A stretch of DNA of 36,575 nucleotides from the sequence record MZ375294.1; one strand, given 5' to 3'. The stretch is from Escherichia phage T7. The translations under genes and the position numbers were made by a program. Each line of letters starts with the position of its first letter. Within the stretch, counting starts at the first letter, position 1. The notes beneath the pieces were generated by a model. It did not search any database. It had not been told where the DNA came from and saw only the letters and a list, made by a program, of their open reading frames with translations. Shown here one piece after another: positions 1 to 36,575 of the stretch.

Positions 1-143
1 TCTCACAGTGTACGGACCTAAAGTTCCCCCCATAGGGTGTACCTAAAGCCCAGCCAATCACCTAAAGTCAACCTTCGGTTGACCTTGAGGGTTCCCTAAG
101 GGTTTGTCTTTGGGTGTTACCTTGAGTGTCTCTCTGTGTCCCT
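1..143 (+). repeat. Left direct terminal repeat (T7-type terminal redundancy)
   Basis: Bases 1-143 are repeated exactly at 36433-36575; begins TCTCACAGTGTACGG as in T7 genome ends. Confidence 0.95.
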
Positions 144-1262: not shown

Positions 1263-1306
1263 TGTCTACTACCAACGTGCAATACGGTCTGACCGCTATC
1301 TCATAA
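1262..1306 (+). pseudogene. Gene 0.4 remnant: first 12 codons fused to sequence just upstream of gene 0.7 (genes 0.4-0.6 deleted)
   Basis: ATG overlaps ocr stop (TAATG); [17 protein letters not shown] stops after 14 aa; 0.7 RBS follows directly. Confidence 0.7.
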
Positions 1307-2478: not shown

Positions 2479-5130
2479 ATGAACACGATTAACATCGCTA
2501 AGAACGACTTCTCTGACATCGAACTGGCTGCTATCCCGTTCAACACTCTGGCTGACCATTACGGTGAGCGTTTAGCTCGCGAACAGTTGGCCCTTGAGCA
2601 TGAGTCTTACGAGATGGGTGAAGCACGCTTCCGCAAGATGTTTGAGCGTCAACTTAAAGCTGGTGAGGTTGCGGATAACGCTGCCGCCAAGCCTCTCATC
2701 ACTACCCTACTCCCTAAGATGATTGCACGCATCAACGACTGGTTTGAGGAAGTGAAAGCTAAGTGCGGCAAGCGCCCGACAGCCTTCCAGTTCCTGCAAG
2801 AAATCAAGCCGGAAGCCGTAGCGTACATCACCATTAAGACCACTCTGGCTTGCCTAACCAGTGCTGACAATACAACCGTTCAGGCTGCAGCAAGCGCAAT
2901 CGGTCGGGCCATTGAGGACGAGGCTCGCTTCGGTCGTATCCGTGACCTTGAAGCTAAGCACTTCAAGAAAAACGTTGAGGAACAACTCAACAAGCGCGTA
3001 GGGCACGTCTACAAGAAAGCATTTATGCGAGTTGTCGAGGCTGACATGCTCTCTAAGGGTCTACTCGGTGGCGAGGCGTGGTCTTCGTGGCATAAGGAAG
3101 ACTCTATTCATGTAGGAGTACGCTGCATCGAGATGCTCATTGAGTCAACCGGAATGGTTAGCTTACACCGCCAAAATGCTGGCGTAGTAGGTCAAGACTC
3201 TGAGACTATCGGACTCGCACCTGAATACGCTGAGGCTATCGCAACCCGTGCAGGTGCGCTGGCTGGCATCTCTCCGATGTTCCAACCTTGCGTAGTTCCT
3301 CCTAAGCCGTGGACTGGCATTACTGGTGGTGGCTATTGGGCTAACGGTCGTCGTCCTCTGGCGCTGGTGCGTACTCACAGTAAGAAAGCACTGATGCGCT
3401 ACGAAGACGTTTACATGCCTGAGGTGTACAAAGCGATTAACATTGCGCAAAACACCGCATGGAAAATCAACAAGAAAGTCCTAGCGGTCGCCAACGTAAT
3501 CACCAAGTGGAAGCATTGTCCGGTCGAGGACATCCCTGCGATTGAGCGTGAAGAACTCCCGATGAAACCGGAAGACATCGACATGAATCCTGAGGCTCTC
3601 ACCGCGTGGAAACGTGCTGCCGCTGCTGTGTACCGCAAGGACAAGGCTCGCAAGTCTCGCCGTATCAGCCTTGAGTTCATGCTTGAGCAAGCCAATAAGT
3701 TTGCTAACCATAAGGCCATCTGGTTCCCTTACAACATGGACTGGCGCGGTCGTGTTTACGCTGTGTCAATGTTCAACCCGCAAGGTAACGATATGACCAA
3801 AGGACTGCTTACGCTGGCGAAAGGTAAACCAATCGGTAAGGAAGGTTACTACTGGCTGAAAATCCACGGTGCAAACTGTGCGGGTGTCGATAAGGTTCCG
3901 TTCCCTGAGCGCATCAAGTTCATTGAGGAAAACCACGAGAACATCATGGCTTGCGCTAAGTCTCCACTGGAGAACACTTGGTGGGCTGAGCAAGATTCTC
4001 CGTTCTGCTTCCTTGCGTTCTGCTTTGAGTACGCTGGGGTACAGCACCACGGCCTGAGCTATAACTGCTCCCTTCCGCTGGCGTTTGACGGGTCTTGCTC
4101 TGGCATCCAGCACTTCTCCGCGATGCTCCGAGATGAGGTAGGTGGTCGCGCGGTTAACTTGCTTCCTAGTGAAACCGTTCAGGACATCTACGGGATTGTT
4201 GCTAAGAAAGTCAACGAGATTCTACAAGCAGACGCAATCAATGGGACCGATAACGAAGTAGTTACCGTGACCGATGAGAACACTGGTGAAATCTCTGAGA
4301 AAGTCAAGCTGGGCACTAAGGCACTGGCTGGTCAATGGCTGGCTTACGGTGTTACTCGCAGTGTGACTAAGCGTTCAGTCATGACGCTGGCTTACGGGTC
4401 CAAAGAGTTCGGCTTCCGTCAACAAGTGCTGGAAGATACCATTCAGCCAGCTATTGATTCCGGCAAGGGTCTGATGTTCACTCAGCCGAATCAGGCTGCT
4501 GGATACATGGCTAAGCTGATTTGGGAATCTGTGAGCGTGACGGTGGTAGCTGCGGTTGAAGCAATGAACTGGCTTAAGTCTGCTGCTAAGCTGCTGGCTG
4601 CTGAGGTCAAAGATAAGAAGACTGGAGAGATTCTTCGCAAGCGTTGCGCTGTGCATTGGGTAACTCCTGATGGTTTCCCTGTGTGGCAGGAATACAAGAA
4701 GCCTATTCAGACGCGCTTGAACCTGATGTTCCTCGGTCAGTTCCGCTTACAGCCTACCATTAACACCAACAAAGATAGCGAGATTGATGCACACAAACAG
4801 GAGTCTGGTATCGCTCCTAACTTTGTACACAGCCAAGACGGTAGCCACCTTCGTAAGACTGTAGTGTGGGCACACGAGAAGTACGGAATCGAATCTTTTG
4901 CACTGATTCACGACTCCTTCGGTACCATTCCGGCTGACGCTGCGAACCTGTTCAAAGCAGTGCGCGAAACTATGGTTGACACATATGAGTCTTGTGATGT
5001 ACTGGCTGATTTCTACGACCAGTTCGCTGACCAGTTGCACGAGTCTCAATTGGACAAAATGTCAGCACTTCCGGCTAAAGGTAACTTGAACCTCCGTGAC
5101 ATCTTAGAGTCGGACTTCGCGTTCGCGTAA
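2479..5130 (+). CDS. 1: T7 RNA polymerase (gene 1), single-subunit DNA-directed RNA polymerase
   Basis: 883-aa ORF starting MNTINIAKNDFSDIELAAIPF and ending ILESDFAFA. Confidence 0.98.
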   Translation: MNTINIAKNDFSDIELAAIPFNTLADHYGERLAREQLALEHESYEMGEARFRKMFERQLKAGEVADNAAAKPLITTLLPKMIARINDWFEEVKAKCGKRPTAFQFLQEIKPEAVAYITIKTTLACLTSADNTTVQAAASAIGRAIEDEARFGRIRDLEAKHFKKNVEEQLNKRVGHVYKKAFMRVVEADMLSKGLLGGEAWSSWHKEDSIHVGVRCIEMLIESTGMVSLHRQNAGVVGQDSETIGLAPEYAEAIATRAGALAGISPMFQPCVVPPKPWTGITGGGYWANGRRPLALVRTHSKKALMRYEDVYMPEVYKAINIAQNTAWKINKKVLAVANVITKWKHCPVEDIPAIEREELPMKPEDIDMNPEALTAWKRAAAAVYRKDKARKSRRISLEFMLEQANKFANHKAIWFPYNMDWRGRVYAVSMFNPQGNDMTKGLLTLAKGKPIGKEGYYWLKIHGANCAGVDKVPFPERIKFIEENHENIMACAKSPLENTWWAEQDSPFCFLAFCFEYAGVQHHGLSYNCSLPLAFDGSCSGIQHFSAMLRDEVGGRAVNLLPSETVQDIYGIVAKKVNEILQADAINGTDNEVVTVTDENTGEISEKVKLGTKALAGQWLAYGVTRSVTKRSVMTLAYGSKEFGFRQQVLEDTIQPAIDSGKGLMFTQPNQAAGYMAKLIWESVSVTVVAAVEAMNWLKSAAKLLAAEVKDKKTGEILRKRCAVHWVTPDGFPVWQEYKKPIQTRLNLMFLGQFRLQPTINTNKDSEIDAHKQESGIAPNFVHSQDGSHLRKTVVWAHEKYGIESFALIHDSFGTIPADAANLFKAVRETMVDTYESCDVLADFYDQFADQLHESQLDKMSALPAKGNLNLRDILESDFAFA

Positions 5131-7773: not shown

Positions 7774-8352
7774 ATGGCTAAGAAGATTTTCACCTCTGCG
7801 CTGGGTACCGCTGAACCTTACGCTTACATCGCCAAGCCGGACTACGGCAACGAAGAGCGTGGCTTTGGGAACCCTCGTGGTGTCTATAAAGTTGACCTGA
7901 CTATTCCCAACAAAGACCCGCGCTGCCAGCGTATGGTCGATGAAATCGTGAAGTGTCACGAAGAGGCTTATGCTGCTGCCGTTGAGGAATACGAAGCTAA
8001 TCCACCTGCTGTAGCTCGTGGTAAGAAACCGCTGAAACCGTATGAGGGTGACATGCCGTTCTTCGATAACGGTGACGGTACGACTACCTTTAAGTTCAAA
8101 TGCTACGCGTCTTTCCAAGACAAGAAGACCAAAGAGACCAAGCACATCAATCTGGTTGTGGTTGACTCAAAAGGTAAGAAGATGGAAGACGTTCCGATTA
8201 TCGGTGGTGGCTCTAAGCTGAAAGTTAAATATTCTCTGGTTCCATACAAGTGGAACACTGCTGTAGGTGCGAGCGTTAAGCTGCAACTGGAATCCGTGAT
8301 GCTGGTCGAACTGGCTACCTTTGGTGGCGGTGAAGACGATTGGGCTGACTAA
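7774..8352 (+). CDS. 2.5: Single-stranded DNA-binding protein gp2.5, truncated by premature TAA (192 aa; acidic C-terminal tail codons remain in frame downstream to 8472)
   Basis: ORF MAKKIFTSALGTAEPYAYIAKPDYGNEERGF...GGEDDWAD then TAA at 8350-8352; same frame continues VEENGYVASGSAKASKPRDEESWDEDDEESEEADEDGDF to TAA at 8470-8472. Confidence 0.9.
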   Translation: MAKKIFTSALGTAEPYAYIAKPDYGNEERGFGNPRGVYKVDLTIPNKDPRCQRMVDEIVKCHEEAYAAAVEEYEANPPAVARGKKPLKPYEGDMPFFDNGDGTTTFKFKCYASFQDKKTKETKHINLVVVDSKGKKMEDVPIIGGGSKLKVKYSLVPYKWNTAVGASVKLQLESVMLVELATFGGGEDDWAD

Positions 8353-8472
8353 GTTGAAGAGAACGGCTATGTTGCCTCTGGTTCTGCCAAAGCGAGCAAA
8401 CCACGCGACGAAGAAAGCTGGGACGAAGACGACGAAGAGTCCGAGGAAGCAGACGAAGACGGAGACTTCTAA

Positions 8473-8892
8473 GTGGAACTGCGGGAGAAAATCCTTGAGC
8501 GAATCAAGGTGACTTCCTCTGGGTGTTGGGAGTGGCAGGGCGCTACGAACAATAAAGGGTACGGGCAGGTGTGGTGCAGCAATACCGGAAAGGTTGTCTA
8601 CTGTCATCGCGTAATGTCTAATGCTCCGAAAGGTTCTACCGTCCTGCACTCCTGTGATAATCCATTATGTTGTAACCCTGCACACCGTTCCATAGGAACT
8701 CCAAAAGAGAACTCCACTGACATGGTAAATAAGGGTCGCTCACACAAGGGGTATAAACTTTCAGACGAAGACGTAATGGCAATCATGGAGTCCAGCGAGT
8801 CCAATGTATCCTTAGCTCGCACCTATGGTGTCTCCCAACAGACTATTTGTGATATACGCAAAGGGAGGCGACATGGCAGGTTACGGCGCTAA
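8473..8892 (+). CDS. 2.8: Gene 2.8 HNH-endonuclease-like protein (GTG start)
   Basis: 139-aa ORF with HNH-like motif HSCDNPLCCNPAH and Cys/His pairs. Confidence 0.75.
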   Translation: MELREKILERIKVTSSGCWEWQGATNNKGYGQVWCSNTGKVVYCHRVMSNAPKGSTVLHSCDNPLCCNPAHRSIGTPKENSTDMVNKGRSHKGYKLSDEDVMAIMESSESNVSLARTYGVSQQTICDIRKGRRHGRLRR

Positions 8893-9777: not shown

Positions 9778-11647
<1,870 letters not shown>

Positions 11648-11709: not shown

Positions 11710-11979
11710 ATGTCTAACGTAGCTGAAACTATCCGTCTATCCGATACAGCTGACCAGTGGAACCGTCGAGTCCACATCAACGTTCGCAACGGTAAGGCGA
11801 CTATGGTTTACCGCTGGAAGGACTCTAAGTCCTCTAAGAATCACACTCAGCGTATGACGTTGACAGATGAGCAAGCACTGCGTCTGGTCAATGCGCTTAC
11901 CAAAGCTGCCGTGACAGCAATTCATGAAGCTGGTCGCGTCAATGAAGCTATGGCTATCCTCGACAAGATTGATAACTAA
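11710..11979 (+). CDS. 4.5: Gene 4.5 protein, function unknown
   Basis: 89-aa ORF MSNVAETIRLSDTADQWNRRVHINVRNGKATMVYRWKD... with RBS AGGAGA. Confidence 0.8.
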   Translation: MSNVAETIRLSDTADQWNRRVHINVRNGKATMVYRWKDSKSSKNHTQRMTLTDEQALRLVNALTKAAVTAIHEAGRVNEAMAILDKIDN

Positions 11980-11980
11980 G

Positions 11981-12020
11981 AGTGGTATCATCAAGGTCGC
12001 CAAAGTGGTGGCCTTCATGA
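11981..12020 (+). promoter_or_regulatory. RNase III processing hairpin R4.7
   Basis: tcatcaaggtcgccaaagtggtggccttcatgaatac. Confidence 0.55.
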
Positions 12021-12023
12021 ATA

Positions 12024-12046
12024 CTATTCGACTCACTATAGGAGAT
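12024..12046 (+). promoter_or_regulatory. T7 RNAP promoter phi4.7 (its gene 4.7 is deleted)
   Basis: ctattcgactcactataggagat. Confidence 0.8.
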
Positions 12047-12070
12047 ATTACCTCAATAGGAGAAATCAAT

Positions 12071-14185
12071 ATGATCGTTTCTGACATCGAAGATAACGCC
12101 CTCTTAGAGAGCGTCACTAAGTTCCACTGCGGGGTTATCTACGACTACTCCACCGCTGAGTACGTAAGCTACCGTCCGAGTGACTTCGGTGCGTATCTGG
12201 ATGCGCTGGAAGCCGAGGTTGCACGAGGCGGTCTTATTGTGTTCCACAACGGTCACAAGTATGACGTTCCTGCATTGACCAAACTGGCAAAGTTGCAATT
12301 GAACCGAGAGTTCCACCTTCCTCGTGAGAACTGTATTGACACCCTTGTGTTGTCACGTTTGATTCATTCCAACCTCAAGGACACCGATATGGGTCTTCTG
12401 CGTTCCGGCAAGTTGCCCGGAAAACGCTTTGGGTCTCACGCTTTGGAGGCGTGGGGTTATCGCTTAGGCGAGATGAAGGGTGAATACAAAGACGACTTTA
12501 AGCGTATGCTTGAAGAGCAGGGTGAAGAATACGTTGACGGAATGGAGTGGTGGAACTTCAACGAAGAGATGATGGACTATAACGTTCAGGACGTTGTGGT
12601 AACTAAAGCTCTCCTTGAGAAGCTACTCTCTGACAAACATTACTTCCCTCCTGAGATTGACTTTACGGACGTAGGATACACTACGTTCTGGTCAGAATCC
12701 CTTGAGGCCGTTGACATTGAACATCGTGCTGCATGGCTGCTCGCTAAACAAGAGCGCAACGGGTTCCCGTTTGACACAAAAGCAATCGAAGAGTTGTACG
12801 TAGAGTTAGCTGCTCGCCGCTCTGAGTTGCTCCGTAAATTGACCGAAACGTTCGGCTCGTGGTATCAGCCTAAAGGTGGCACTGAGATGTTCTGCCATCC
12901 GCGAACAGGTAAGCCACTACCTAAATACCCTCGCATTAAGACACCTAAAGTTGGTGGTATCTTTAAGAAGCCTAAGAACAAGGCACAGCGAGAAGGCCGT
13001 GAGCCTTGCGAACTTGATACCCGCGAGTACGTTGCTGGTGCTCCTTACACCCCAGTTGAACATGTTGTGTTTAACCCTTCGTCTCGTGACCACATTCAGA
13101 AGAAACTCCAAGAGGCTGGGTGGGTCCCGACCAAGTACACCGATAAGGGTGCTCCTGTGGTGGACGATGAGGTACTCGAAGGAGTACGTGTAGATGACCC
13201 TGAGAAGCAAGCCGCTATCGACCTCATTAAAGAGTACTTGATGATTCAGAAGCGAATCGGACAGTCTGCTGAGGGAGACACAGCATGGCTTCGTTATGTT
13301 GCTGAGGATGGTAAGATTCATGGTTCTGTTAACCCTAATGGAGCAGTTACGGGTCGTGCGACCCATGCGTTCCCAAACCTTGCGCAAATTCCGGGTGTAC
13401 GTTCTCCTTATGGAGAGCAGTGTCGCGCTGCTTTTGGCGCTGAGCACCATTTGGATGGGATAACTGGTAAGCCTTGGGTTCAGGCTGGCATCGACGCATC
13501 CGGTCTTGAGCTACGCTGCTTGGCTCACTTCATGGCTCGCTTTGATAACGGCGAGTACGCTCACGAGATTCTTAACGGCGACATCCACACTAAGAACCAG
13601 ATAGCTGCTGAACTACCTACCCGAGATAACGCTAAGACGTTCATCTATGGGTTCCTCTATGGTGCTGGTGATGAGAAGATTGGACAGATTGTTGGTGCTG
13701 GTAAAGAGCGCGGTAAGGAACTCAAGAAGAAATTCCTTGAGAACACCCCCGCGATTGCAGCACTCCGCGAGTCTATCCAACAGACACTTGTCGAGTCCTC
13801 TCAATGGGTAGCTGGTGAGCAACAAGTCAAGTGGAAACGCCGCTGGATTAAAGGTCTGGATGGTCGTAAGGTACACGTTCGTAGTCCTCACGCTGCCTTG
13901 AATACCCTACTGCAATCTGCTGGTGCTCTCATCTGCAAACTGTGGATTATCAAGACCGAAGAGATGCTCGTAGAGAAAGGCTTGAAGCATGGCTGGGATG
14001 GGGACTTTGCGTACATGGCATGGGTACATGATGAAATCCAAGTAGGCTGCCGTACCGAAGAGATTGCTCAGGTGGTCATTGAGACCGCACAAGAAGCGAT
14101 GCGCTGGGTTGGAGACCACTGGAACTTCCGGTGTCTTCTGGATACCGAAGGTAAGATGGGTCCTAATTGGGCGATTTGCCACTGA
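12071..14185 (+). CDS. 5: T7 DNA polymerase (gene 5), family A polymerase with 3'-5' exonuclease
   Basis: 704-aa [29 protein letters not shown]...; family A polymerase-type palm residues near the C-terminus. Confidence 0.97.
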
Positions 14186-14230
14186 TACAGGAGGCTACTC
14201 CAAAGGCATAAAACTATAGGAGAAATTATT

Positions 14231-14530
14231 ATGGCTATGACAAAGAAATTTAAAGTGTCCTTCGACGTTACCGCAAAGATGTCGTCTGACGTTCAGGCAA
14301 TCTTAGAGAAAGATATGCTGCATCTATGTAAGCAGGTCGGCTCAGGTGCGATTGTCCCCAATGGTAAACAGAAGGAAATGATTGTCCAGTTCCTGACACA
14401 CGGTATGGAAGGATTGATGACATTCGTAGTACGTACATCATTTCGTGAGGCCATTAAGGACATGCACGAAGAGTATGCAGATAAGGACTCTTTCAAACAA
14501 TCTCCTGCAACAGTACGGGAGGTGTTCTGA
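14231..14530 (+). CDS. 5.5: Gene 5.5 protein (H-NS-binding)
   Basis: 99-aa ORF MAMTKKFKVSFDVTAKMSSDVQAILEKDMLH... Confidence 0.85.
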   Translation: MAMTKKFKVSFDVTAKMSSDVQAILEKDMLHLCKQVGSGAIVPNGKQKEMIVQFLTHGMEGLMTFVVRTSFREAIKDMHEEYADKDSFKQSPATVREVF

Positions 14531-16243: not shown

Positions 16244-16510
16244 ATGTGTTTCTCACCGAAAATTAAAACTCCGAAGATGGATACCAATCAGATTCGAGCC
16301 GTTGAGCCAGCGCCTCTGACCCAAGAAGTGTCAAGCGTGGAGTTCGGTGGGTCTTCTGATGAGACGGATACCGAGGGCACCGAAGTGTCTGGACGCAAAG
16401 GCCTCAAGGTCGAACGTGATGATTCCGTAGCGAAGTCTAAAGCCAGCGGCAATGGCTCCGCTCGTATGAAATCTTCCATCCGTAAGTCCGCATTTGGAGG
16501 TAAGAAGTGA
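16244..16510 (+). CDS. 6.7: Gene 6.7 virion protein
   Basis: 88-aa ORF MCFSPKIKTPKMDTNQIRAVEPAPLTQEVSS... Confidence 0.8.
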   Translation: MCFSPKIKTPKMDTNQIRAVEPAPLTQEVSSVEFGGSSDETDTEGTEVSGRKGLKVERDDSVAKSKASGNGSARMKSSIRKSAFGGKK

Positions 16511-16911
16511 TGTCTGAGTTCACATGTGTGGAGGCTAAGAGTCGCTTCCGTGCAATCCGGTGGACTGTGGAACACCTTGGGTTGCCTAAAGGATTCGAAG
16601 GACACTTTGTGGGCTACAGCCTCTACGTAGACGAAGTGATGGACATGTCTGGTTGCCGTGAAGAGTACATTCTGGACTCTACCGGAAAACATGTAGCGTA
16701 CTTCGCGTGGTGCGTAAGCTGTGACATTCACCACAAAGGAGACATTCTGGATGTAACGTCCGTTGTCATTAATCCTGAGACAGACTCTAAGGGCTTACAG
16801 CGATTCCTAGCGAAACGCTTTAAGTACCTTGCGGAACTCCACGATTGCGATTGGGTGTCTCGTTGTAAGCATGAAGGCGAGACAATGCGTGTATACTTTA
16901 AGGAGGTATAA
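16510..16911 (+). CDS. 7: Gene 7 virion/host-range protein
   Basis: 133-aa ORF MSEFTCVEAKSRFRAIRWTVEHLGLPKGFEGHF... Confidence 0.8.
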   Translation: MSEFTCVEAKSRFRAIRWTVEHLGLPKGFEGHFVGYSLYVDEVMDMSGCREEYILDSTGKHVAYFAWCVSCDIHHKGDILDVTSVVINPETDSKGLQRFLAKRFKYLAELHDCDWVSRCKHEGETMRVYFKEV

Positions 16912-16914
16912 GTT

Positions 16915-17214
16915 ATGGGTAAGAAAGTTAAGAAGGCCGTGAAGAAAGTCCCCAAGTCCGTTAAGAAAGTCGTTAAGGAAGGGGCTAGTCCGGTTAAACA
17001 GGTTGCTGGCGGTCTAGCTGGTCTGGCTGGTGGTACTGGTGAAGCACAGATGGTGGAAGTACCACAAGCTGCCGCACAGATTGTTGACGTACCTGAGAAA
17101 GAGGTTTCCACTGAGGACGAAGCACAGACAGAAAGCGGACGCAAGAAAGCTCGTGCTGGCGGTAAGAAATCCTTGAGTGTAGCCCGTAGCTCCGGTGGCG
17201 GTATCAACATTTAA
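16915..17214 (+). CDS. 7.3: Gene 7.3 tail-associated protein
   Basis: 99-aa ORF MGKKVKKAVKKVPKSVKKVVKEGASPVKQVAGGLAGLAGG... Confidence 0.85.
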   Translation: MGKKVKKAVKKVPKSVKKVVKEGASPVKQVAGGLAGLAGGTGEAQMVEVPQAAAQIVDVPEKEVSTEDEAQTESGRKKARAGGKKSLSVARSSGGGINI

Positions 17215-17227
17215 TCAGGAGGTTATC

Positions 17228-17250
17228 CGTAAGACATGGAGACACATTTA
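17228..17250 (+). other. Gene 7.7 remnant (3' end only; carries the gene 8 RBS)
   Basis: cgtaagacatggagacacatttaa directly after the 7.3 stop and RBS AGGAGGTTATC; no start codon for a 7.7 ORF. Confidence 0.7.
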
Positions 17251-18861
17251 ATGGCTGAGAAACGAACAGGACTTGCGGAGGATGGCGCAAAGTCTGTCTA
17301 TGAGCGTTTAAAGAACGACCGTGCTCCCTATGAGACACGCGCTCAGAATTGCGCTCAATATACCATCCCATCATTGTTCCCTAAGGACTCCGATAACGCC
17401 TCTACAGATTATCAAACTCCGTGGCAAGCCGTGGGCGCTCGTGGTCTGAACAATCTAGCCTCTAAGCTCATGCTGGCTCTATTCCCTATGCAGACTTGGA
17501 TGCGACTTACTATATCTGAATATGAAGCAAAGCAGTTACTGAGCGACCCCGATGGACTCGCTAAGGTCGATGAGGGCCTCTCGATGGTAGAGCGTATCAT
17601 CATGAACTACATTGAGTCTAACAGTTACCGCGTGACTCTCTTTGAGGCTCTCAAACAGTTAGTCGTAGCTGGTAACGTCCTGCTGTACCTACCGGAACCG
17701 GAAGGGTCAAACTATAATCCCATGAAGCTGTACCGATTGTCTTCTTATGTGGTCCAACGAGACGCATTCGGCAACGTTCTGCAAATGGTGACTCGTGACC
17801 AGATAGCTTTTGGTGCTCTCCCTGAGGACATCCGTAAGGCTGTAGAAGGTCAAGGTGGTGAGAAGAAAGCTGATGAGACAATCGACGTGTACACTCACAT
17901 CTATCTGGATGAGGACTCAGGTGAATACCTCCGATACGAAGAGGTCGAGGGTATGGAAGTCCAAGGCTCCGATGGGACTTATCCTAAAGAGGCTTGCCCA
18001 TACATCCCGATTCGGATGGTCAGACTAGATGGTGAATCCTACGGTCGTTCGTACATTGAGGAATACTTAGGTGACTTACGGTCCCTTGAAAATCTCCAAG
18101 AGGCTATCGTCAAGATGTCCATGATTAGCTCTAAGGTTATCGGCTTAGTGAATCCTGCTGGTATCACCCAGCCACGCCGACTGACCAAAGCTCAGACTGG
18201 TGACTTCGTTACTGGTCGTCCAGAAGACATCTCGTTCCTCCAACTGGAGAAGCAAGCAGACTTTACTGTAGCTAAAGCCGTAAGTGACGCTATCGAGGCT
18301 CGCCTTTCGTTTGCCTTTATGTTGAACTCTGCGGTTCAGCGTACAGGTGAACGTGTGACCGCCGAAGAGATTCGGTATGTAGCTTCTGAACTTGAAGATA
18401 CTTTAGGTGGTGTCTACTCTATCCTTTCTCAAGAATTACAATTGCCTCTGGTACGAGTGCTCTTGAAGCAACTACAAGCCACGCAACAGATTCCTGAGTT
18501 ACCTAAGGAAGCCGTAGAGCCAACCATTAGTACAGGTCTGGAAGCAATTGGTCGAGGACAAGACCTTGATAAGCTGGAGCGGTGTGTCACTGCGTGGGCT
18601 GCACTGGCACCTATGCGGGACGACCCTGATATTAACCTTGCGATGATTAAGTTACGTATTGCCAACGCTATCGGTATTGACACTTCTGGTATTCTACTCA
18701 CCGAAGAACAGAAGCAACAGAAGATGGCCCAACAGTCTATGCAAATGGGTATGGATAATGGTGCTGCTGCGCTGGCTCAAGGTATGGCTGCACAAGCTAC
18801 AGCTTCACCTGAGGCTATGGCTGCTGCCGCTGATTCCGTAGGTTTACAGCCGGGAATTTAA
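17251..18861 (+). CDS. 8: Head-to-tail connector (portal) protein gp8
   Basis: 536-aa ORF MAEKRTGLAEDGAKSVYERLKNDRAPYETRAQNCAQYTIPSLFP...; in-frame ATG 15 nt upstream at 17236. Confidence 0.95.
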   Translation: MAEKRTGLAEDGAKSVYERLKNDRAPYETRAQNCAQYTIPSLFPKDSDNASTDYQTPWQAVGARGLNNLASKLMLALFPMQTWMRLTISEYEAKQLLSDPDGLAKVDEGLSMVERIIMNYIESNSYRVTLFEALKQLVVAGNVLLYLPEPEGSNYNPMKLYRLSSYVVQRDAFGNVLQMVTRDQIAFGALPEDIRKAVEGQGGEKKADETIDVYTHIYLDEDSGEYLRYEEVEGMEVQGSDGTYPKEACPYIPIRMVRLDGESYGRSYIEEYLGDLRSLENLQEAIVKMSMISSKVIGLVNPAGITQPRRLTKAQTGDFVTGRPEDISFLQLEKQADFTVAKAVSDAIEARLSFAFMLNSAVQRTGERVTAEEIRYVASELEDTLGGVYSILSQELQLPLVRVLLKQLQATQQIPELPKEAVEPTISTGLEAIGRGQDLDKLERCVTAWAALAPMRDDPDINLAMIKLRIANAIGIDTSGILLTEEQKQQKMAQQSMQMGMDNGAAALAQGMAAQATASPEAMAAAADSVGLQPGI

Positions 18862-18960: not shown

Positions 18961-19884
18961 ATGGCTGAATCTAATGCAGACGTATATGCATCTTTTGGCG
19001 TGAACTCCGCTGTGATGTCTGGTGGTTCCGTTGAGGAACATGAGCAGAACATGCTGGCTCTTGATGTTGCTGCCCGTGATGGCGATGATGCAATCGAGTT
19101 AGCGTCAGACGAAGTGGAAACAGAACGTGACCTGTATGACAACTCTGACCCGTTCGGTCAAGAGGATGACGAAGGCCGCATTCAGGTTCGTATCGGTGAT
19201 GGCTCTGAGCCGACCGATGTGGACACTGGAGAAGAAGGCGTTGAGGGCACCGAAGGTTCCGAAGAGTTTACCCCACTGGGCGAGACTCCAGAAGAACTGG
19301 TAGCTGCCTCTGAGCAACTTGGTGAGCACGAAGAGGGCTTCCAAGAGATGATTAACATTGCTGCTGAGCGTGGCATGAGTGTCGAGACCATTGAGGCTAT
19401 CCAGCGTGAGTACGAGGAGAACGAAGAGTTGTCCGCCGAGTCCTACGCTAAGCTGGCTGAAATTGGCTACACGAAGGCTTTCATTGACTCGTATATCCGT
19501 GGTCAAGAAGCTCTGGTGGAGCAGTACGTAAACAGTGTCATTGAGTACGCTGGTGGTCGTGAACGTTTTGATGCACTGTATAACCGCCTTGAGACGCACA
19601 ACCCTGAGGCTGCACAGTCGCTGGATAATGCGTTGACCAATCGTGACTTAGCGACCGTTAAGGCTATCATCAACTTGGCTGGTGAGTCTCGCGCTAAGGC
19701 GTTCGGTCGTAAGCCAACTCGTAGTGTGACTAATCGTGCTATTCCGGCTAAACCTCAGGCTACCAAGCGTGAAGGCTTTGCGGACCGTAGCGAGATGATT
19801 AAAGCTATGAGTGACCCTCGGTATCGCACAGATGCCAACTATCGTCGTCAAGTCGAACAGAAAGTAATCGATTCGAACTTCTGA
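18961..19884 (+). CDS. 9: Capsid assembly (scaffolding) protein gp9
   Basis: 307-aa acidic ORF MAESNADVYASFGVNSAVMSGGSVEEHEQNMLALDV... Confidence 0.95.
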   Translation: MAESNADVYASFGVNSAVMSGGSVEEHEQNMLALDVAARDGDDAIELASDEVETERDLYDNSDPFGQEDDEGRIQVRIGDGSEPTDVDTGEEGVEGTEGSEEFTPLGETPEELVAASEQLGEHEEGFQEMINIAAERGMSVETIEAIQREYEENEELSAESYAKLAEIGYTKAFIDSYIRGQEALVEQYVNSVIEYAGGRERFDALYNRLETHNPEAAQSLDNALTNRDLATVKAIINLAGESRAKAFGRKPTRSVTNRAIPAKPQATKREGFADRSEMIKAMSDPRYRTDANYRRQVEQKVIDSNF

Positions 19885-19897
19885 TAGACTTCGAAAT

Positions 19898-19920
19898 TAA
19901 TACGACTCACTATATGGAGA
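19898..19920 (+). promoter_or_regulatory. T7 RNAP promoter phi10 with T instead of G at +1
   Basis: taatacgactcacTATATGGAGA; followed by the s10 leader and RBS aagaaggagatatacatATG. Confidence 0.85.
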
Positions 19921-19977
19921 CCACAACGGTTTCCCTCTAGAAATAATTTTGTTTAACTTTAAGAAGGAGATATACAT

Positions 19978-21015
19978 ATGGCTAGCATGACTGGTGGACA
20001 GCAAATGGGTACTAACCAAGGTAAAGGTGTAGTTGCTGCTGGAGATAAACTGGCGTTGTTCTTGAAGGTATTTGGCGGTGAAGTCCTGACTGCGTTCGCT
20101 CGTACCTCCGTGACCACTTCTCGCCACATGGTACGTTCCATCTCCAGCGGTAAATCCGCTCAGTTCCCTGTTCTGGGTCGCACTCAGGCAGCGTATCTGG
20201 CTCCGGGCGAGAACCTCGACGATAAACGTAAGGACATCAAACACACCGAGAAGGTAATCACCATTGACGGTCTCCTGACGGCTGACGTTCTGATTTATGA
20301 TATTGAGGACGCGATGAACCACTACGACGTTCGCTCTGAGTATACCTCTCAGTTGGGTGAATCTCTGGCGATGGCTGCGGATGGTGCGGTTCTGGCTGAG
20401 ATTGCCGGTCTGTGTAACGTGGAAAGCAAATATAATGAGAACATCGAGGGCTTAGGTACTGCTACCGTAATTGAGACCACTCAGAACAAGGCCGCACTTA
20501 CCGACCAAGTTGCGCTGGGTAAGGAGATTATTGCGGCTCTGACTAAGGCTCGTGCGGCTCTGACCAAGAACTATGTTCCGGCTGCTGACCGTGTGTTCTA
20601 CTGTGACCCAGATAGCTACTCTGCGATTCTGGCAGCACTGATGCCGAACGCAGCAAACTACGCTGCTCTGATTGACCCTGAGAAGGGTTCTATCCGCAAC
20701 GTTATGGGCTTTGAGGTTGTAGAAGTTCCGCACCTCACCGCTGGTGGTGCTGGTACCGCTCGTGAGGGCACTACTGGTCAGAAGCACGTCTTCCCTGCCA
20801 ATAAAGGTGAGGGTAATGTCAAGGTTGCTAAGGACAACGTTATCGGCCTGTTCATGCACCGCTCTGCGGTAGGTACTGTTAAGCTGCGTGACTTGGCTCT
20901 GGAGCGCGCTCGCCGTGCTACCTTCCAAGCGGACCAGATTATCGCTAAGTACGCAATGGGCCACGGTGGTCTTCGCCCAGAAGCTGCTGGTGCAGTGGTT
21001 TTCAAAGTGGAGTAA
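19978..21015 (+). CDS. 10A: Major capsid protein gp10A
   Basis: 345-aa ORF MASMTGGQQMGTNQGKGVVAAGDKLALF... ending VVFKVE. Confidence 0.97.
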   Translation: MASMTGGQQMGTNQGKGVVAAGDKLALFLKVFGGEVLTAFARTSVTTSRHMVRSISSGKSAQFPVLGRTQAAYLAPGENLDDKRKDIKHTEKVITIDGLLTADVLIYDIEDAMNHYDVRSEYTSQLGESLAMAADGAVLAEIAGLCNVESKYNENIEGLGTATVIETTQNKAALTDQVALGKEIIAALTKARAALTKNYVPAADRVFYCDPDSYSAILAALMPNAANYAALIDPEKGSIRNVMGFEVVEVPHLTAGGAGTAREGTTGQKHVFPANKGEGNVKVAKDNVIGLFMHRSAVGTVKLRDLALERARRATFQADQIIAKYAMGHGGLRPEAAGAVVFKVE

Positions 21016-36310: not shown

Positions 36311-36395
36311 ATGGAGTTCCTATAGTGACCTCTAAGAATGGTGATTATATTGTATTAGTATCACCTTAACTTAAGGGCCTATGGAGTTCCTATAG
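36311..36395 (+). repeat. Two 15-bp direct repeats atggagttcctatag (36311-36325 and 36381-36395) flanking the right-end deletion junction
   Basis: Exact 15-bp copies 70 bp apart between phiOR and the right terminal repeat. Confidence 0.8.
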
Positions 36396-36432: not shown

Positions 36433-36575
36433 TCTCACAGTGTACGGACCTAAAGTTCCCCCCATAGGGTGTACCTAAAGCCCAGCCAATCACCTAAAGT
36501 CAACCTTCGGTTGACCTTGAGGGTTCCCTAAGGGTTTGTCTTTGGGTGTTACCTTGAGTGTCTCTCTGTGTCCCT
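36433..36575 (+). repeat. Right direct terminal repeat
   Basis: Exact copy of bases 1-143. Confidence 0.95.

What the first reader, a model, noticed from the sequence alone, without database searches (positions are those of the whole stretch)
17215..17250. HNH-endonuclease-like genes 3.8, 5.3 and 7.7 are all removed while the paralog 2.8 is kept
In canonical T7, genes 3.8, 5.3 and 7.7 encode HNH homing-endonuclease-like proteins. All three are deleted here (junctions near 9871, 14200 and 17227). Gene 2.8, which carries a recognisable HNH-like motif (HSCDNPLCCNPAH) in this window, is intact at 8473-8892. The remaining 24-bp tail of 7.7 (CGTAAGACATGGAGACACATTTAA) supplies the gene 8 RBS and an in-frame upstream ATG at 17236 that would add 5 residues (METHL) to gp8 if used.
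Basis: partly seen in the sequence, partly recalled or inferred. Interest (0 to 1): 0.45.

Follow-up and report, generated by a model that had tools for sequence, protein, structure and literature searches.

The report
Engineered gene-deletion scars in lab T7
The window is a laboratory genome-reduced phage T7 made by CRISPR-assisted recombination, and the missing genes 3.8, 5.3 and 7.7 are three of nine published-style deletion scars, not a natural or selective loss of HNH nuclease genes.

Summary
The window is a complete T7 genome of 36,575 bp, against 39,937 bp for the reference, with nine internal deletions. Gene 7.7 is cut from its GTG start codon to 24 nt before its stop (junction 17227|17228). 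Gene 5.3 is cut from its ATG (14200|14201). Gene 3.8 has lost 292 internal bp (about 9867-9869).

The same 80-bp junctions occur in 9, 50 and 41 GenBank "Mutant Escherichia phage T7 clone T7_xxx" records from the CiPGr study (Yuan et al. 2022). That study deleted non-essential genes using Cas9 plus 50-bp homology arms.

- gp3.8 and gp7.7 are HNH proteins, but gp5.3 is a PD-(D/E)XK nuclease.
- The three genes make up 30% of the lost DNA, and their enrichment among the deleted genes is not significant.
- gp2.8 is a true paralog of gp7.7 (49% identity). It is not wild type: E70A and L72R flank the motif histidine, probably as CRISPR-escape changes.
- The upstream in-frame ATG (METHL) also exists in wild-type T7. 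The deletion only brings the strong 7.7 Shine-Dalgarno to within 11-13 nt of it.

Verdict: ordinary and already published. Interest is low.

The parts
16915..17214 (+). Gene 7.3 (99 aa), stop TAA at 17212-17214. It lies immediately upstream of the scar.
17217..17223 (+). Shine-Dalgarno AGGAGGT. It drives gene 7.7 in T7. In natural relatives that lack 7.7 it sits 5 nt before the gene 8 ATG. Here it is orphaned, 11-13 nt before ATG 17236 and 27 nt before the gene 8 ATG.
17227..17228 (+). Gene 7.7 deletion junction. Reference bases 19848-20216 (369 bp) are missing, with 0 bp of microhomology. The left edge falls exactly at the GTG start codon.
   Evidence: The identical 80-bp junction is in 9 GenBank CiPGr clones.
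17228..17251 (+). Retained 24-nt 3' tail of gene 7.7. It holds an in-frame TAA (17230-17232), the upstream ATG (17236-17238), gene 8's native Shine-Dalgarno GGAG (17238-17241) and the TAATG stop/start overlap.
17251..18861 (+). Gene 8 (portal protein, 536 aa from the canonical ATG). The mechanical ORF from 17236 is 541 aa.
14200..14201 (+). Gene 5.3 deletion junction. Reference bases 16483-16820 (338 bp) are missing, starting from the ATG. A 19-nt tail (14201-14219) is kept ahead of the gene 5.5 RBS and its ATG at 14231.
   Evidence: The junction is in 50 records.
9841..9914 (+). Remnant of gene 3.8: the first 26-29 nt and the last 45-48 nt, with 292 bp deleted and the junction inside the TAA at 9867-9869. 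The 3.8 ATG (9841) is now in frame with the gene 4A ATG (9889). This gives a 582-codon ORF, 9841-11589.
   Evidence: The junction is in 41 records.
8473..8892 (+). Gene 2.8, the retained HNH-type paralog of 7.7 (139 aa, GTG start). It carries E70A (8681 A>C) and L72R (8687-8688 TA>GT), which flank His71 of the motif.

Best explanation
The site at 17215-17250 is the scar of a designed whole-gene deletion of T7 gene 7.7. [quoted passage not shown] 2022). It is probably one of the 300-transfer clones.

How it arose: Cas9 guided by spacers inside a non-essential gene cuts the incoming phage DNA. A plasmid-borne 100-bp template with two 50-bp arms repairs the break and removes the gene. The edited phage then escapes further cutting and is enriched over hundreds of serial transfers. 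The 7.7 cassette removed the gene from its GTG to 24 nt before its stop. This kept gene 8's own Shine-Dalgarno and start codon intact. Genes 5.3 and 3.8 were lost the same way earlier in the lineage. So were 1.4 and 4.7, and probably 4.3. The losses at 0.4-0.6, within 1.7 and around 19.5 are flanked by 3-9 bp of (partly imperfect) microhomology. Of these, the paper names only the 0.3-0.6 and 19.5 regions as undesigned large-fragment losses.

Gene 2.8 survived because the phage escaped Cas9 there by point mutation rather than by deletion. This step is inferred. Two or three successive substitutions occurred within 8 nt.

Effect at the scar: translational coupling between 7.7 and 8 is lost. The strong 7.7 Shine-Dalgarno now lies 11-13 nt upstream of a pre-existing in-frame ATG. 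A minority of portal protein may therefore start with METHL. This is inferred and not shown.
For: - The window is collinear with T7 over its whole length at about 99.8-99.9% identity, and the nine deletions account for the size difference exactly.
- Four deletions begin exactly at a start codon with 0 bp of microhomology: 1.4 and 4.7 are exact CDS removals, and 5.3 and 7.7 run from the start codon to 19 and 24 nt before the stop.
- Identical 80-bp junctions occur in GenBank 'Mutant Escherichia phage T7 clone T7_250L/290L/300S...' records. The counts are nested as expected for sequential accumulation: 5.3 in 50 records, 3.8 in 41 and 7.7 in 9.
- The paper describes 50-bp arms, a 'cassette-gene' design for whole-gene removal, avoidance of regulatory elements, and undesigned large losses at 0.3-0.6 and 19.5. 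It names gp5.3 becoming dominant early and gp7.7 as newly removable. It reports about 60 point mutations per T7 mutant, about 90% missense and about 23% in spacer or PAM regions.
- The window has 44 substitutions: 31 missense or nonsense, 4 synonymous and 9 intergenic. Two triplets fall within 10 nt of each other (P=1e-5).
- The stated 8.4% reduction of clone T7_300L equals (39,937-36,575)/39,937 (my arithmetic).
- The L72R doublet is shared with 39 sibling clones, including an early 39.2-kb one. E70A is unique to the window.
Against: - No record in the searched collection is identical to the window. Its 0.4-0.6 deletion differs from that of T7_300S and T7_290L, and its right end beyond gene 19 is 157 bp shorter than in T7_300S.
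- The length printed for T7_300L in the paper (36,937 bp) does not match 36,575 bp.
Neither the designed arms nor the targeting of gene 2.8 could be verified.
- About 80% of T7 positions lie in the PAM or seed of some NGG site. Overlap of the 2.8 changes with predicted protospacers is therefore weak evidence by itself.
- The left edge of the 3.8 deletion is not at the start codon, so its design rule is unclear.
Confidence: 0.93

Rival explanations
1. Natural polymorphism. The window is a wild T7-like phage that never acquired, or naturally lost, the mobile endonuclease genes 3.8, 5.3 and 7.7.
For: Free-standing endonuclease genes are sporadic among relatives. The natural Teseptimavirus CICC 80001 lacks 2.8, 3.8, 5.3 and 7.7 altogether, and ESh1 also joins 7.3 directly to 8.
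Against: - Natural empty sites look different. In CICC 80001 and ESh1 the Shine-Dalgarno is followed by 5 nt and then the gene 8 ATG, with no 7.7 tail. The natural 5/5.5 junction likewise has no 5.3 tail.
- The window is about 99.9% identical to laboratory T7.
- It shares exact junctions with deposited 'Mutant ... clone' records.
- It also lacks six other non-mobile regions.
Confidence: 0.01
2. Spontaneous illegitimate-recombination deletions of the Studier type, or undesigned CRISPR-escape deletions, that happened to remove these genes without any designed template.
For: Five of the nine deletions have 3-9 bp of microhomology (0.4-0.6, 1.7, 3.8, 4.3 and 19.5). The paper reports undesigned large-fragment losses. 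The 3.8 deletion does not start at the start codon.
Against: The 7.7 and 5.3 junctions have 0 bp of microhomology. They start on the first base of the start codon and stop just upstream of the next gene's RBS, as do 1.4 and 4.7. That precision at four loci is not expected from illegitimate recombination. The paper does not list 3.8, 5.3 or 7.7 among its undesigned losses.
Confidence: 0.04
3. Function-driven selection. HNH-type nucleases were specifically counter-selected in the Cas9 host, while gp2.8 was kept because it provides a needed, possibly nuclease-independent, function.
For: - The 2.8 segment is present in 113 T7-level records, against about 114-117 such records overall. So essentially no sequenced clone lost it.
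- It accumulated missense changes rather than a deletion.
- HNH homing endonucleases, including catalytically dead T7 gp3.8, can attenuate a DNA-break-sensing defence system.
Against: - Enrichment of nuclease genes among the deleted set is not significant (P=0.076 and 0.22).
- A T7 lacking 2.8, 3.8 and 7.7 is viable and plates normally on ordinary hosts.
- A natural relative has no 2.8.
- An early escape mutation that removes the selective pressure explains retention more simply.
Confidence: 0.02

Closest known systems
CiPGr genome-reduced T7 clones (Yuan et al. 2022, NAR 50:13183, PMC9825161; GenBank MZ375281, MZ375287-MZ375292, OL964748, OL964749)
   Same: The 7.7, 5.3 and 3.8 junctions are identical at 80/80 nt. 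The clones also share the gp2.5 truncation to 192 aa, the gp2.8 L72R doublet and the 582-aa 3.8/4A fusion ORF.
   Different: The window has a larger 0.4-0.6 deletion (676 bp), 157 bp less DNA beyond gene 19 at the right end and an extra gp2.8 E70A change. No deposited record in the collection is identical to it.
SMART 'T7-B' chassis phage (mBio 2025, PMC12153263; probably PV223880-PV223883)
   Same: It deliberately removes essentially the same gene set (0.4-0.7, 1.4, 1.7, 3.8, 4.3-4.7, 5.3, 7.7, 19.5) and keeps 2.8. Its 5.3 junction matches at 79/80 nt.
   Different: It was built by recombineering and reassembly, not by Cas9 selection. The 7.7 and 3.8 junctions differ, since there were no PV hits. 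It also removes 0.7 and 4.5.
T7 delta-3HE (delta 2.8, 3.8, 7.7; Mahata et al. 2025, bioRxiv 10.1101/2025.09.07.674715)
   Same: It removes the HNH homing-endonuclease genes 3.8 and 7.7, and it shows that these genes are dispensable on standard hosts.
   Different: It also removes 2.8 and keeps 5.3. It was made by trxA marker exchange. It was used to show that the endonucleases give a fitness benefit against the GAPS4 defence system.
Natural Teseptimavirus genomes without these genes (e.g. Escherichia phage CICC 80001, NC_027387; Shigella phage ESh1)
   Same: Genes 7.3 and 8 are adjacent, as are 5 and 5.5, and 3.5 and 4. The same CAGGAGGT Shine-Dalgarno follows the 7.3 stop codon.
   Different: The natural empty sites carry no tail of 7.7 or 5.3. 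The Shine-Dalgarno is 5 nt from the gene 8 ATG. Gene 2.8 is absent too. Overall identity to the window in this region is only about 80-83%.

Membership tests
HNH / His-Me finger endonuclease (Pfam HNH_3, PF13392) | Reference gp3.8 and gp7.7 match the family model above its curated threshold | tested here: met
   gp3.8 scores 56.0 bits and gp7.7 scores 49.8 bits, against a cut-off of 24.8. Both hit multiple PHROG 'HNH endonuclease' families.
HNH / His-Me finger endonuclease (Pfam HNH_3, PF13392) | Reference gp5.3 matches the family model | tested here: not met
   There is no HNH hit at E<=1. BLASTP finds no similarity to gp2.8, gp3.8 or gp7.7. Its PHROG family has unknown function.
HNH / His-Me finger endonuclease (Pfam HNH_3, PF13392) | The gp2.8 encoded in the window matches the family model above threshold and keeps the motif histidines | tested here: inconclusive
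   Reference gp2.8 scores 26.1 bits, just above the cut-off. The window's version scores 15.8 bits, below it, because of E70A and L72R. His59 and His71 are retained. Homology is secure through 49% identity to gp7.7 (E=3e-36). Activity cannot be tested here.
PD-(D/E)XK nuclease (Pfam PDDEXK_5, PF11645) | gp5.3 matches the family model above its curated threshold | tested here: met
   It scores 42.1 bits against a cut-off of 26.1, E=1.1e-10, over residues 5-96. The best PDB sequence hit is 2OST, 'putative endonuclease', at E=0.013.
Free-standing homing endonuclease gene (mobile element) | Sporadic presence or absence at a fixed site among close relatives | tested here: met
   CICC 80001 lacks genes at all four sites and carries an HNH gene at a different site. 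ESh1 lacks 7.7.
Free-standing homing endonuclease gene (mobile element) | Demonstrated site-specific cleavage of the empty allele and gene conversion (homing) | not testable with these tools
   This requires co-infection and cleavage assays. I found no report of it for T7 gp2.8, gp3.8, gp5.3 or gp7.7 in the papers read.
CiPGr-engineered T7 mutant | Deletion junctions identical to deposited CiPGr clones | tested here: met
   The 7.7, 5.3 and 3.8 junctions match at 80/80 nt in 9, 46 (plus 4 further records at 79/80) and 38 (plus 3 lower-identity matches) records respectively.
CiPGr-engineered T7 mutant | Junctions equal the designed 50-bp homology arms, and mutations fall in the designed spacers | not testable with these tools
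   The supplementary tables are not held. Boundaries at start codons and non-random mutation clusters are consistent with the design.
CiPGr-engineered T7 mutant | Identity to a specific deposited record | tested here: not met
   The best records differ by their left- and right-end deletions and by one base in gene 2.8. The length does match the 8.4% reduction stated for T7_300L.

The most novel reading that the evidence does not exclude
Gene 2.8 may be kept under positive selection in the Cas9-expressing host. The phage repeatedly paid for escape with missense changes next to the HNH histidine rather than losing the gene, even though its paralog 7.7 was readily deleted. That would point to a nuclease-independent role for gp2.8, for example masking DNA ends or breaks, as proposed for homing endonucleases that blunt the GAPS4 defence system. 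A lesser novel reading is that the scar makes part of the portal protein start five residues early (METHL).
Probability: 0.06. Interest if true: 0.45.

Novelty: already known. Interest (0 to 1): 0.1.

Why it matters
As a discovery it matters little. The deletions are deliberate, published laboratory edits, and the dispensability of genes 3.8, 5.3 and 7.7 is already documented in the CiPGr study, the SMART chassis and T7 delta-3HE.

Its practical value is as a caution for annotation.
- Automatic gene calls on these clones extend gp8 to 541 aa, gp4A to 582 aa and gp5, because the scars put upstream start codons in frame or next to strong ribosome-binding sites.
- gp5.3 should not be labelled HNH.
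- A phage lacking 3.8 and 7.7, with an altered 2.8, is predicted from the 2025 preprint to be less fit on hosts that carry GAPS4-type defences. This is relevant if such reduced genomes are used as therapeutic chassis.

Tried and rejected
- Searching the paper library for the accession 'MZ375237' found nothing.
- The CiPGr supplementary tables with spacers, arms and accessions are not held. Designed arms and the targeting of 2.8 could not be confirmed.
- The whole-genome sibling loci L003 and L004 were not exported to the Python sandbox. I replaced whole-genome comparison with 80-bp junction BLAST at a strict E-value, plus DNA alignment.
- NCBIfam gave no hit for any of the four proteins.
- A PDB sequence search gave nothing for gp7.7 and only a weak 2OST hit for gp5.3.
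- I tested whether the gp2.8 changes lie in Cas9 protospacers. They do, but 80% of all T7 positions lie in the PAM or seed of some NGG site. The overlap is therefore uninformative, and I rely on the clustering statistic instead.
- I considered a natural lack of homing endonuclease genes. I rejected it because the natural empty sites have no 7.7 or 5.3 tails.
- I considered selective loss of nuclease genes. I rejected it on the hypergeometric test.
- I did not run structure prediction. gp5.3 and gp7.7 are absent from the window and so cannot be submitted, and the Pfam and PHROG evidence was sufficient.

Full report
**What the window is**

The 36,575-bp window is collinear with phage T7 (NC_001604, 39,937 bp) over its whole length, at about 99.8-99.9% identity. 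It has nine internal deletions totalling 3,329 bp. It also has an identical 18-bp deletion and small changes in both terminal repeats. Together these account exactly for the 3,362-bp size difference. No foreign DNA is present.

**Check of the observation**

- Gene 7.7 is missing from the first base of its GTG start (reference 19848) to 24 nt before its stop (reference 20216). The junction is at window 17227|17228, with no microhomology.
- Gene 5.3 is missing from its ATG (reference 16483) to 19 nt before its stop. The junction is at 14200|14201.
- Gene 3.8 has lost 292 internal bp. The junction lies inside a TAA at 9867-9869.
- None of the deleted sequences is present elsewhere in the window at DNA or protein level. 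Only gp3.8 residues 1-10 and 108-121 remain.
- Gene 2.8 is an intact 139-codon ORF at 8473-8892.

Gene 3.8 is only partly removed.

**Origin**

The closest GenBank records are 'Mutant Escherichia phage T7 clone T7_250L / T7_290L / T7_300S / T7_220S' and their siblings, 36.5-39.2 kb long. I ran 80-bp junction-spanning queries with an E-value limit that only a full-length match can pass.

| Junction | Records with a match | Notes |
|---|---|---|
| 7.7 | 9 | all identical |
| 5.3 | 50 | 46 identical |
| 3.8 | 41 | 38 identical |

They are nested, as expected for edits accumulating in a serially passaged lineage.

The records belong to the CiPGr study (Yuan et al. 2022, PMC9825161). In that study:
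- Cas9 spacers and 2 x 50-bp homology arms on a plasmid library delete either 100 bp or the whole gene of each non-essential candidate.
- Phage were passaged 300-600 times.
- gp5.3 mutants became dominant early, and gp7.7 was reported as newly removable.
- Undesigned large losses arose at 0.3-0.6, 4.3-4.7 and 19.5.
- T7 mutants accumulated about 60 point mutations, about 90% missense and about 23% in spacer or PAM regions.

The window fits on every count:
- Four deletions start exactly on a start codon. Genes 1.4 and 4.7 are exact CDS removals, and 5.3 and 7.7 stop just ahead of the next gene's RBS.
- The left-end and right-end deletions are flanked by short microhomology.
- 31 of 44 substitutions are missense or nonsense and only 4 are synonymous.
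- The substitutions are clustered. Two triplets fall within 10 nt, P=1e-5 by simulation.

The paper's smallest clone, T7_300L, is described as reduced by 8.4%. That equals (39,937-36,575)/39,937. The printed length of 36,937 bp disagrees, so this identification is an inference. No record in the collection is identical to the window. Its 0.4-0.6 deletion differs from that of T7_300S and T7_290L, its right end beyond gene 19 is 157 bp shorter than in T7_300S, and it has one extra change in gene 2.8.

**Are the genes HNH-like?**

- Pfam places gp3.8 (56.0 bits) and gp7.7 (49.8 bits) in HNH_3, where the cut-off is 24.8.
- Reference gp2.8 just passes at 26.1 bits.
- gp2.8 and gp7.7 are true paralogs, with 49% identity over 128 residues (E=3e-36). 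gp3.8 shares only the roughly 50-residue HNH core with them.
- gp5.3 is different. It matches PDDEXK_5 (42.1 bits against a cut-off of 26.1). It has no similarity to the other three. Its best solved relative is 2OST (E=0.013). From memory, 2OST is the PD-(D/E)XK homing endonuclease I-Ssp6803I.

So gp5.3 can fairly be called 'endonuclease-like', but not 'HNH'. An independent preprint also defines T7's three homing endonucleases as 2.8, 3.8 and 7.7.

**Is there a selective pattern?**

No. The three deletions are 999 of the 3,362 bp lost, or 29.7%. Assume all four nuclease-like genes were among the 36 targeted genes. The chance that at least 3 of the 4 fall among the 11 genes hit is then 0.076. 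For at least 2 of the 3 HNH genes it is 0.22.

**Why is 2.8 kept?**

Its ORF is intact but carries three base changes within 8 nt (reference 10065 A>C and 10071-10072 TA>GT). These give E70A and L72R on either side of His71, changing NPEHL to NPAHR. The HNH_3 score drops to 15.8 bits.

The TA>GT doublet is shared with 39 sibling clones, including an early 39.2-kb clone. E70A is unique to the window. One predicted plus-strand protospacer (10058-10077, PAM AGG) and several minus-strand ones cover all three positions. That overlap is expected by chance for 80% of T7 positions, so the clustering is the stronger argument.

The most economical reading is that the phage escaped Cas9 at 2.8 early by point mutation, which removed the pressure to delete the gene. 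This is inferred.

Gene 2.8 is not essential. T7 lacking 2.8, 3.8 and 7.7 is viable, and the natural relative CICC 80001 has gene 3 directly after gene 2.5.

**The gene 8 start**

The in-frame TAA (17230-17232), the ATG at 17236 and the METHL codons are all present in wild-type T7. What the deletion changes is the context upstream.

- The strong 7.7 Shine-Dalgarno (AGGAGGT, -11.0 kcal/mol against the anti-SD) now lies 11-13 nt upstream of that ATG. In wild type the ATG has no Shine-Dalgarno (-1.4 kcal/mol).
- Gene 8's own GGAG (-6.4 kcal/mol, spacing 8-9 nt) is unchanged.
- Predicted accessibility of the native RBS falls modestly, from 0.60 to 0.44.
- A spacing of 11-13 nt is longer than optimal, so use of the upstream ATG is possible but probably minor. 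This is inference from general knowledge of SD spacing.
- GenBank annotation of the delta-7.7 clones calls gp8 as 541 aa from the upstream ATG. A sibling that keeps 7.7 is annotated at 536 aa.
- All solved T7 portal structures use the 536-aa form.

**Natural context**

In CICC 80001 and ESh1, genes 7.3 and 8 are adjacent. The same CAGGAGGT sits 5 nt before the gene 8 ATG. Gene 7.7 therefore looks like an insertion between gene 8's ancestral Shine-Dalgarno and its start codon, and it supplies a replacement Shine-Dalgarno in its own 3' end.

Gene 2.8 does the equivalent at gene 3. It uses the GTG that directly follows the 2.5 stop codon, which in CICC 80001 is the start of gene 3.

CICC 80001 lacks 2.8, 3.8, 5.3 and 7.7 and carries an HNH gene elsewhere. 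This is the sporadic distribution expected of free-standing endonuclease genes. The engineered scars differ from the natural empty sites by the retained 7.7 and 5.3 tails, which rules out a natural origin.

**Verdict**

The finding accurately describes deletion scars in a published, engineered, genome-reduced T7. The 'HNH genes removed, paralog spared' framing is partly wrong, because gp5.3 is PD-(D/E)XK and gp2.8 is mutated. It also does not reflect a biological selectivity. Novelty: already known. Interest: low.

Noticed in passing
window 7774-8352 (stop created at 8350): Gene 2.5 (single-stranded DNA-binding protein) carries E193*, which truncates the 232-aa protein to 192 aa. This removes the acidic C-terminal tail, which from memory of the Richardson laboratory work is considered essential. 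Sibling clones T7_290L and T7_300S are annotated with the same 192-aa CDS. Possible compensating changes are gene 5 A8D and K404T, and gene 4 M316I. The paper lists gp2.5 among 'deleted or disrupted' genes and reports a burst size of 2.1 for T7_300L.
   Followed up: partly
window 9841-11589: The 292-bp deletion in 3.8 puts the 3.8 start codon, with its strong GGAGGT Shine-Dalgarno, in frame with gene 4A. This predicts a primase-helicase with 16 extra N-terminal residues ([20 protein letters not shown]…). Sibling GenBank records annotate this 582-aa form.
   Followed up: partly
window 1-143 and 36433-36575: Both terminal repeats carry identical changes relative to the reference: an extra C in a C-run, a G>T change and an 18-bp deletion (gggttggggatgaccctt). 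The repeat is therefore 143 bp instead of 160 bp.
   Followed up: partly
window about 385-395 (phiOL promoter) and about 584: The phiOL promoter start region changes from TATAAGGAGA to TATAGGGAGA, closer to the consensus T7 promoter initiation sequence. One extra A is inserted in the early-promoter region.
   Followed up: no
window 2479-5130 (gene 1): T7 RNA polymerase carries five missense changes: R96C, V137A, Q184R, E245G and P862S. Tail fibre gp17 has K214E, R542H and N546K. Across the genome, 31 of 44 substitutions change the protein and only 4 are synonymous.
   Followed up: no
window 36315-36323: A second tight cluster of three substitutions (reference 39304, 39307 and 39312) lies in intergenic DNA about 50 nt to the left of the 356-bp deletion in the 19.5 region. 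It could be another escape cluster or a footprint of recombination.
   Followed up: no
window 8470-8475 and 17215-17253; L008 14905-14925 and 23840-23865: Comparison with the natural relative CICC 80001 suggests that the paralogs 2.8 and 7.7 each inserted exactly between the translation-start signals and the body of an essential gene (gene 3 and gene 8). Each took over the ancestral Shine-Dalgarno or start codon and supplies a replacement inside its own 3' end.
   Followed up: partly
window 11924-14185: Exact removal of gene 4.7 leaves an upstream ATG in frame with gene 5. The mechanical ORF is therefore 753 aa and the sibling annotation gives 738 aa, against 704 aa for T7 DNA polymerase. This is probably an annotation artefact.
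   Followed up: no
window 1289-1297: The left-end deletion (0.4-0.6, 676 bp) lies between imperfect 9-bp repeats (CTGACCGCT and CTGAACGCT). It is larger than the deletion at this locus in T7_300S and T7_290L, so this locus was hit more than once or independently.
   Followed up: partly
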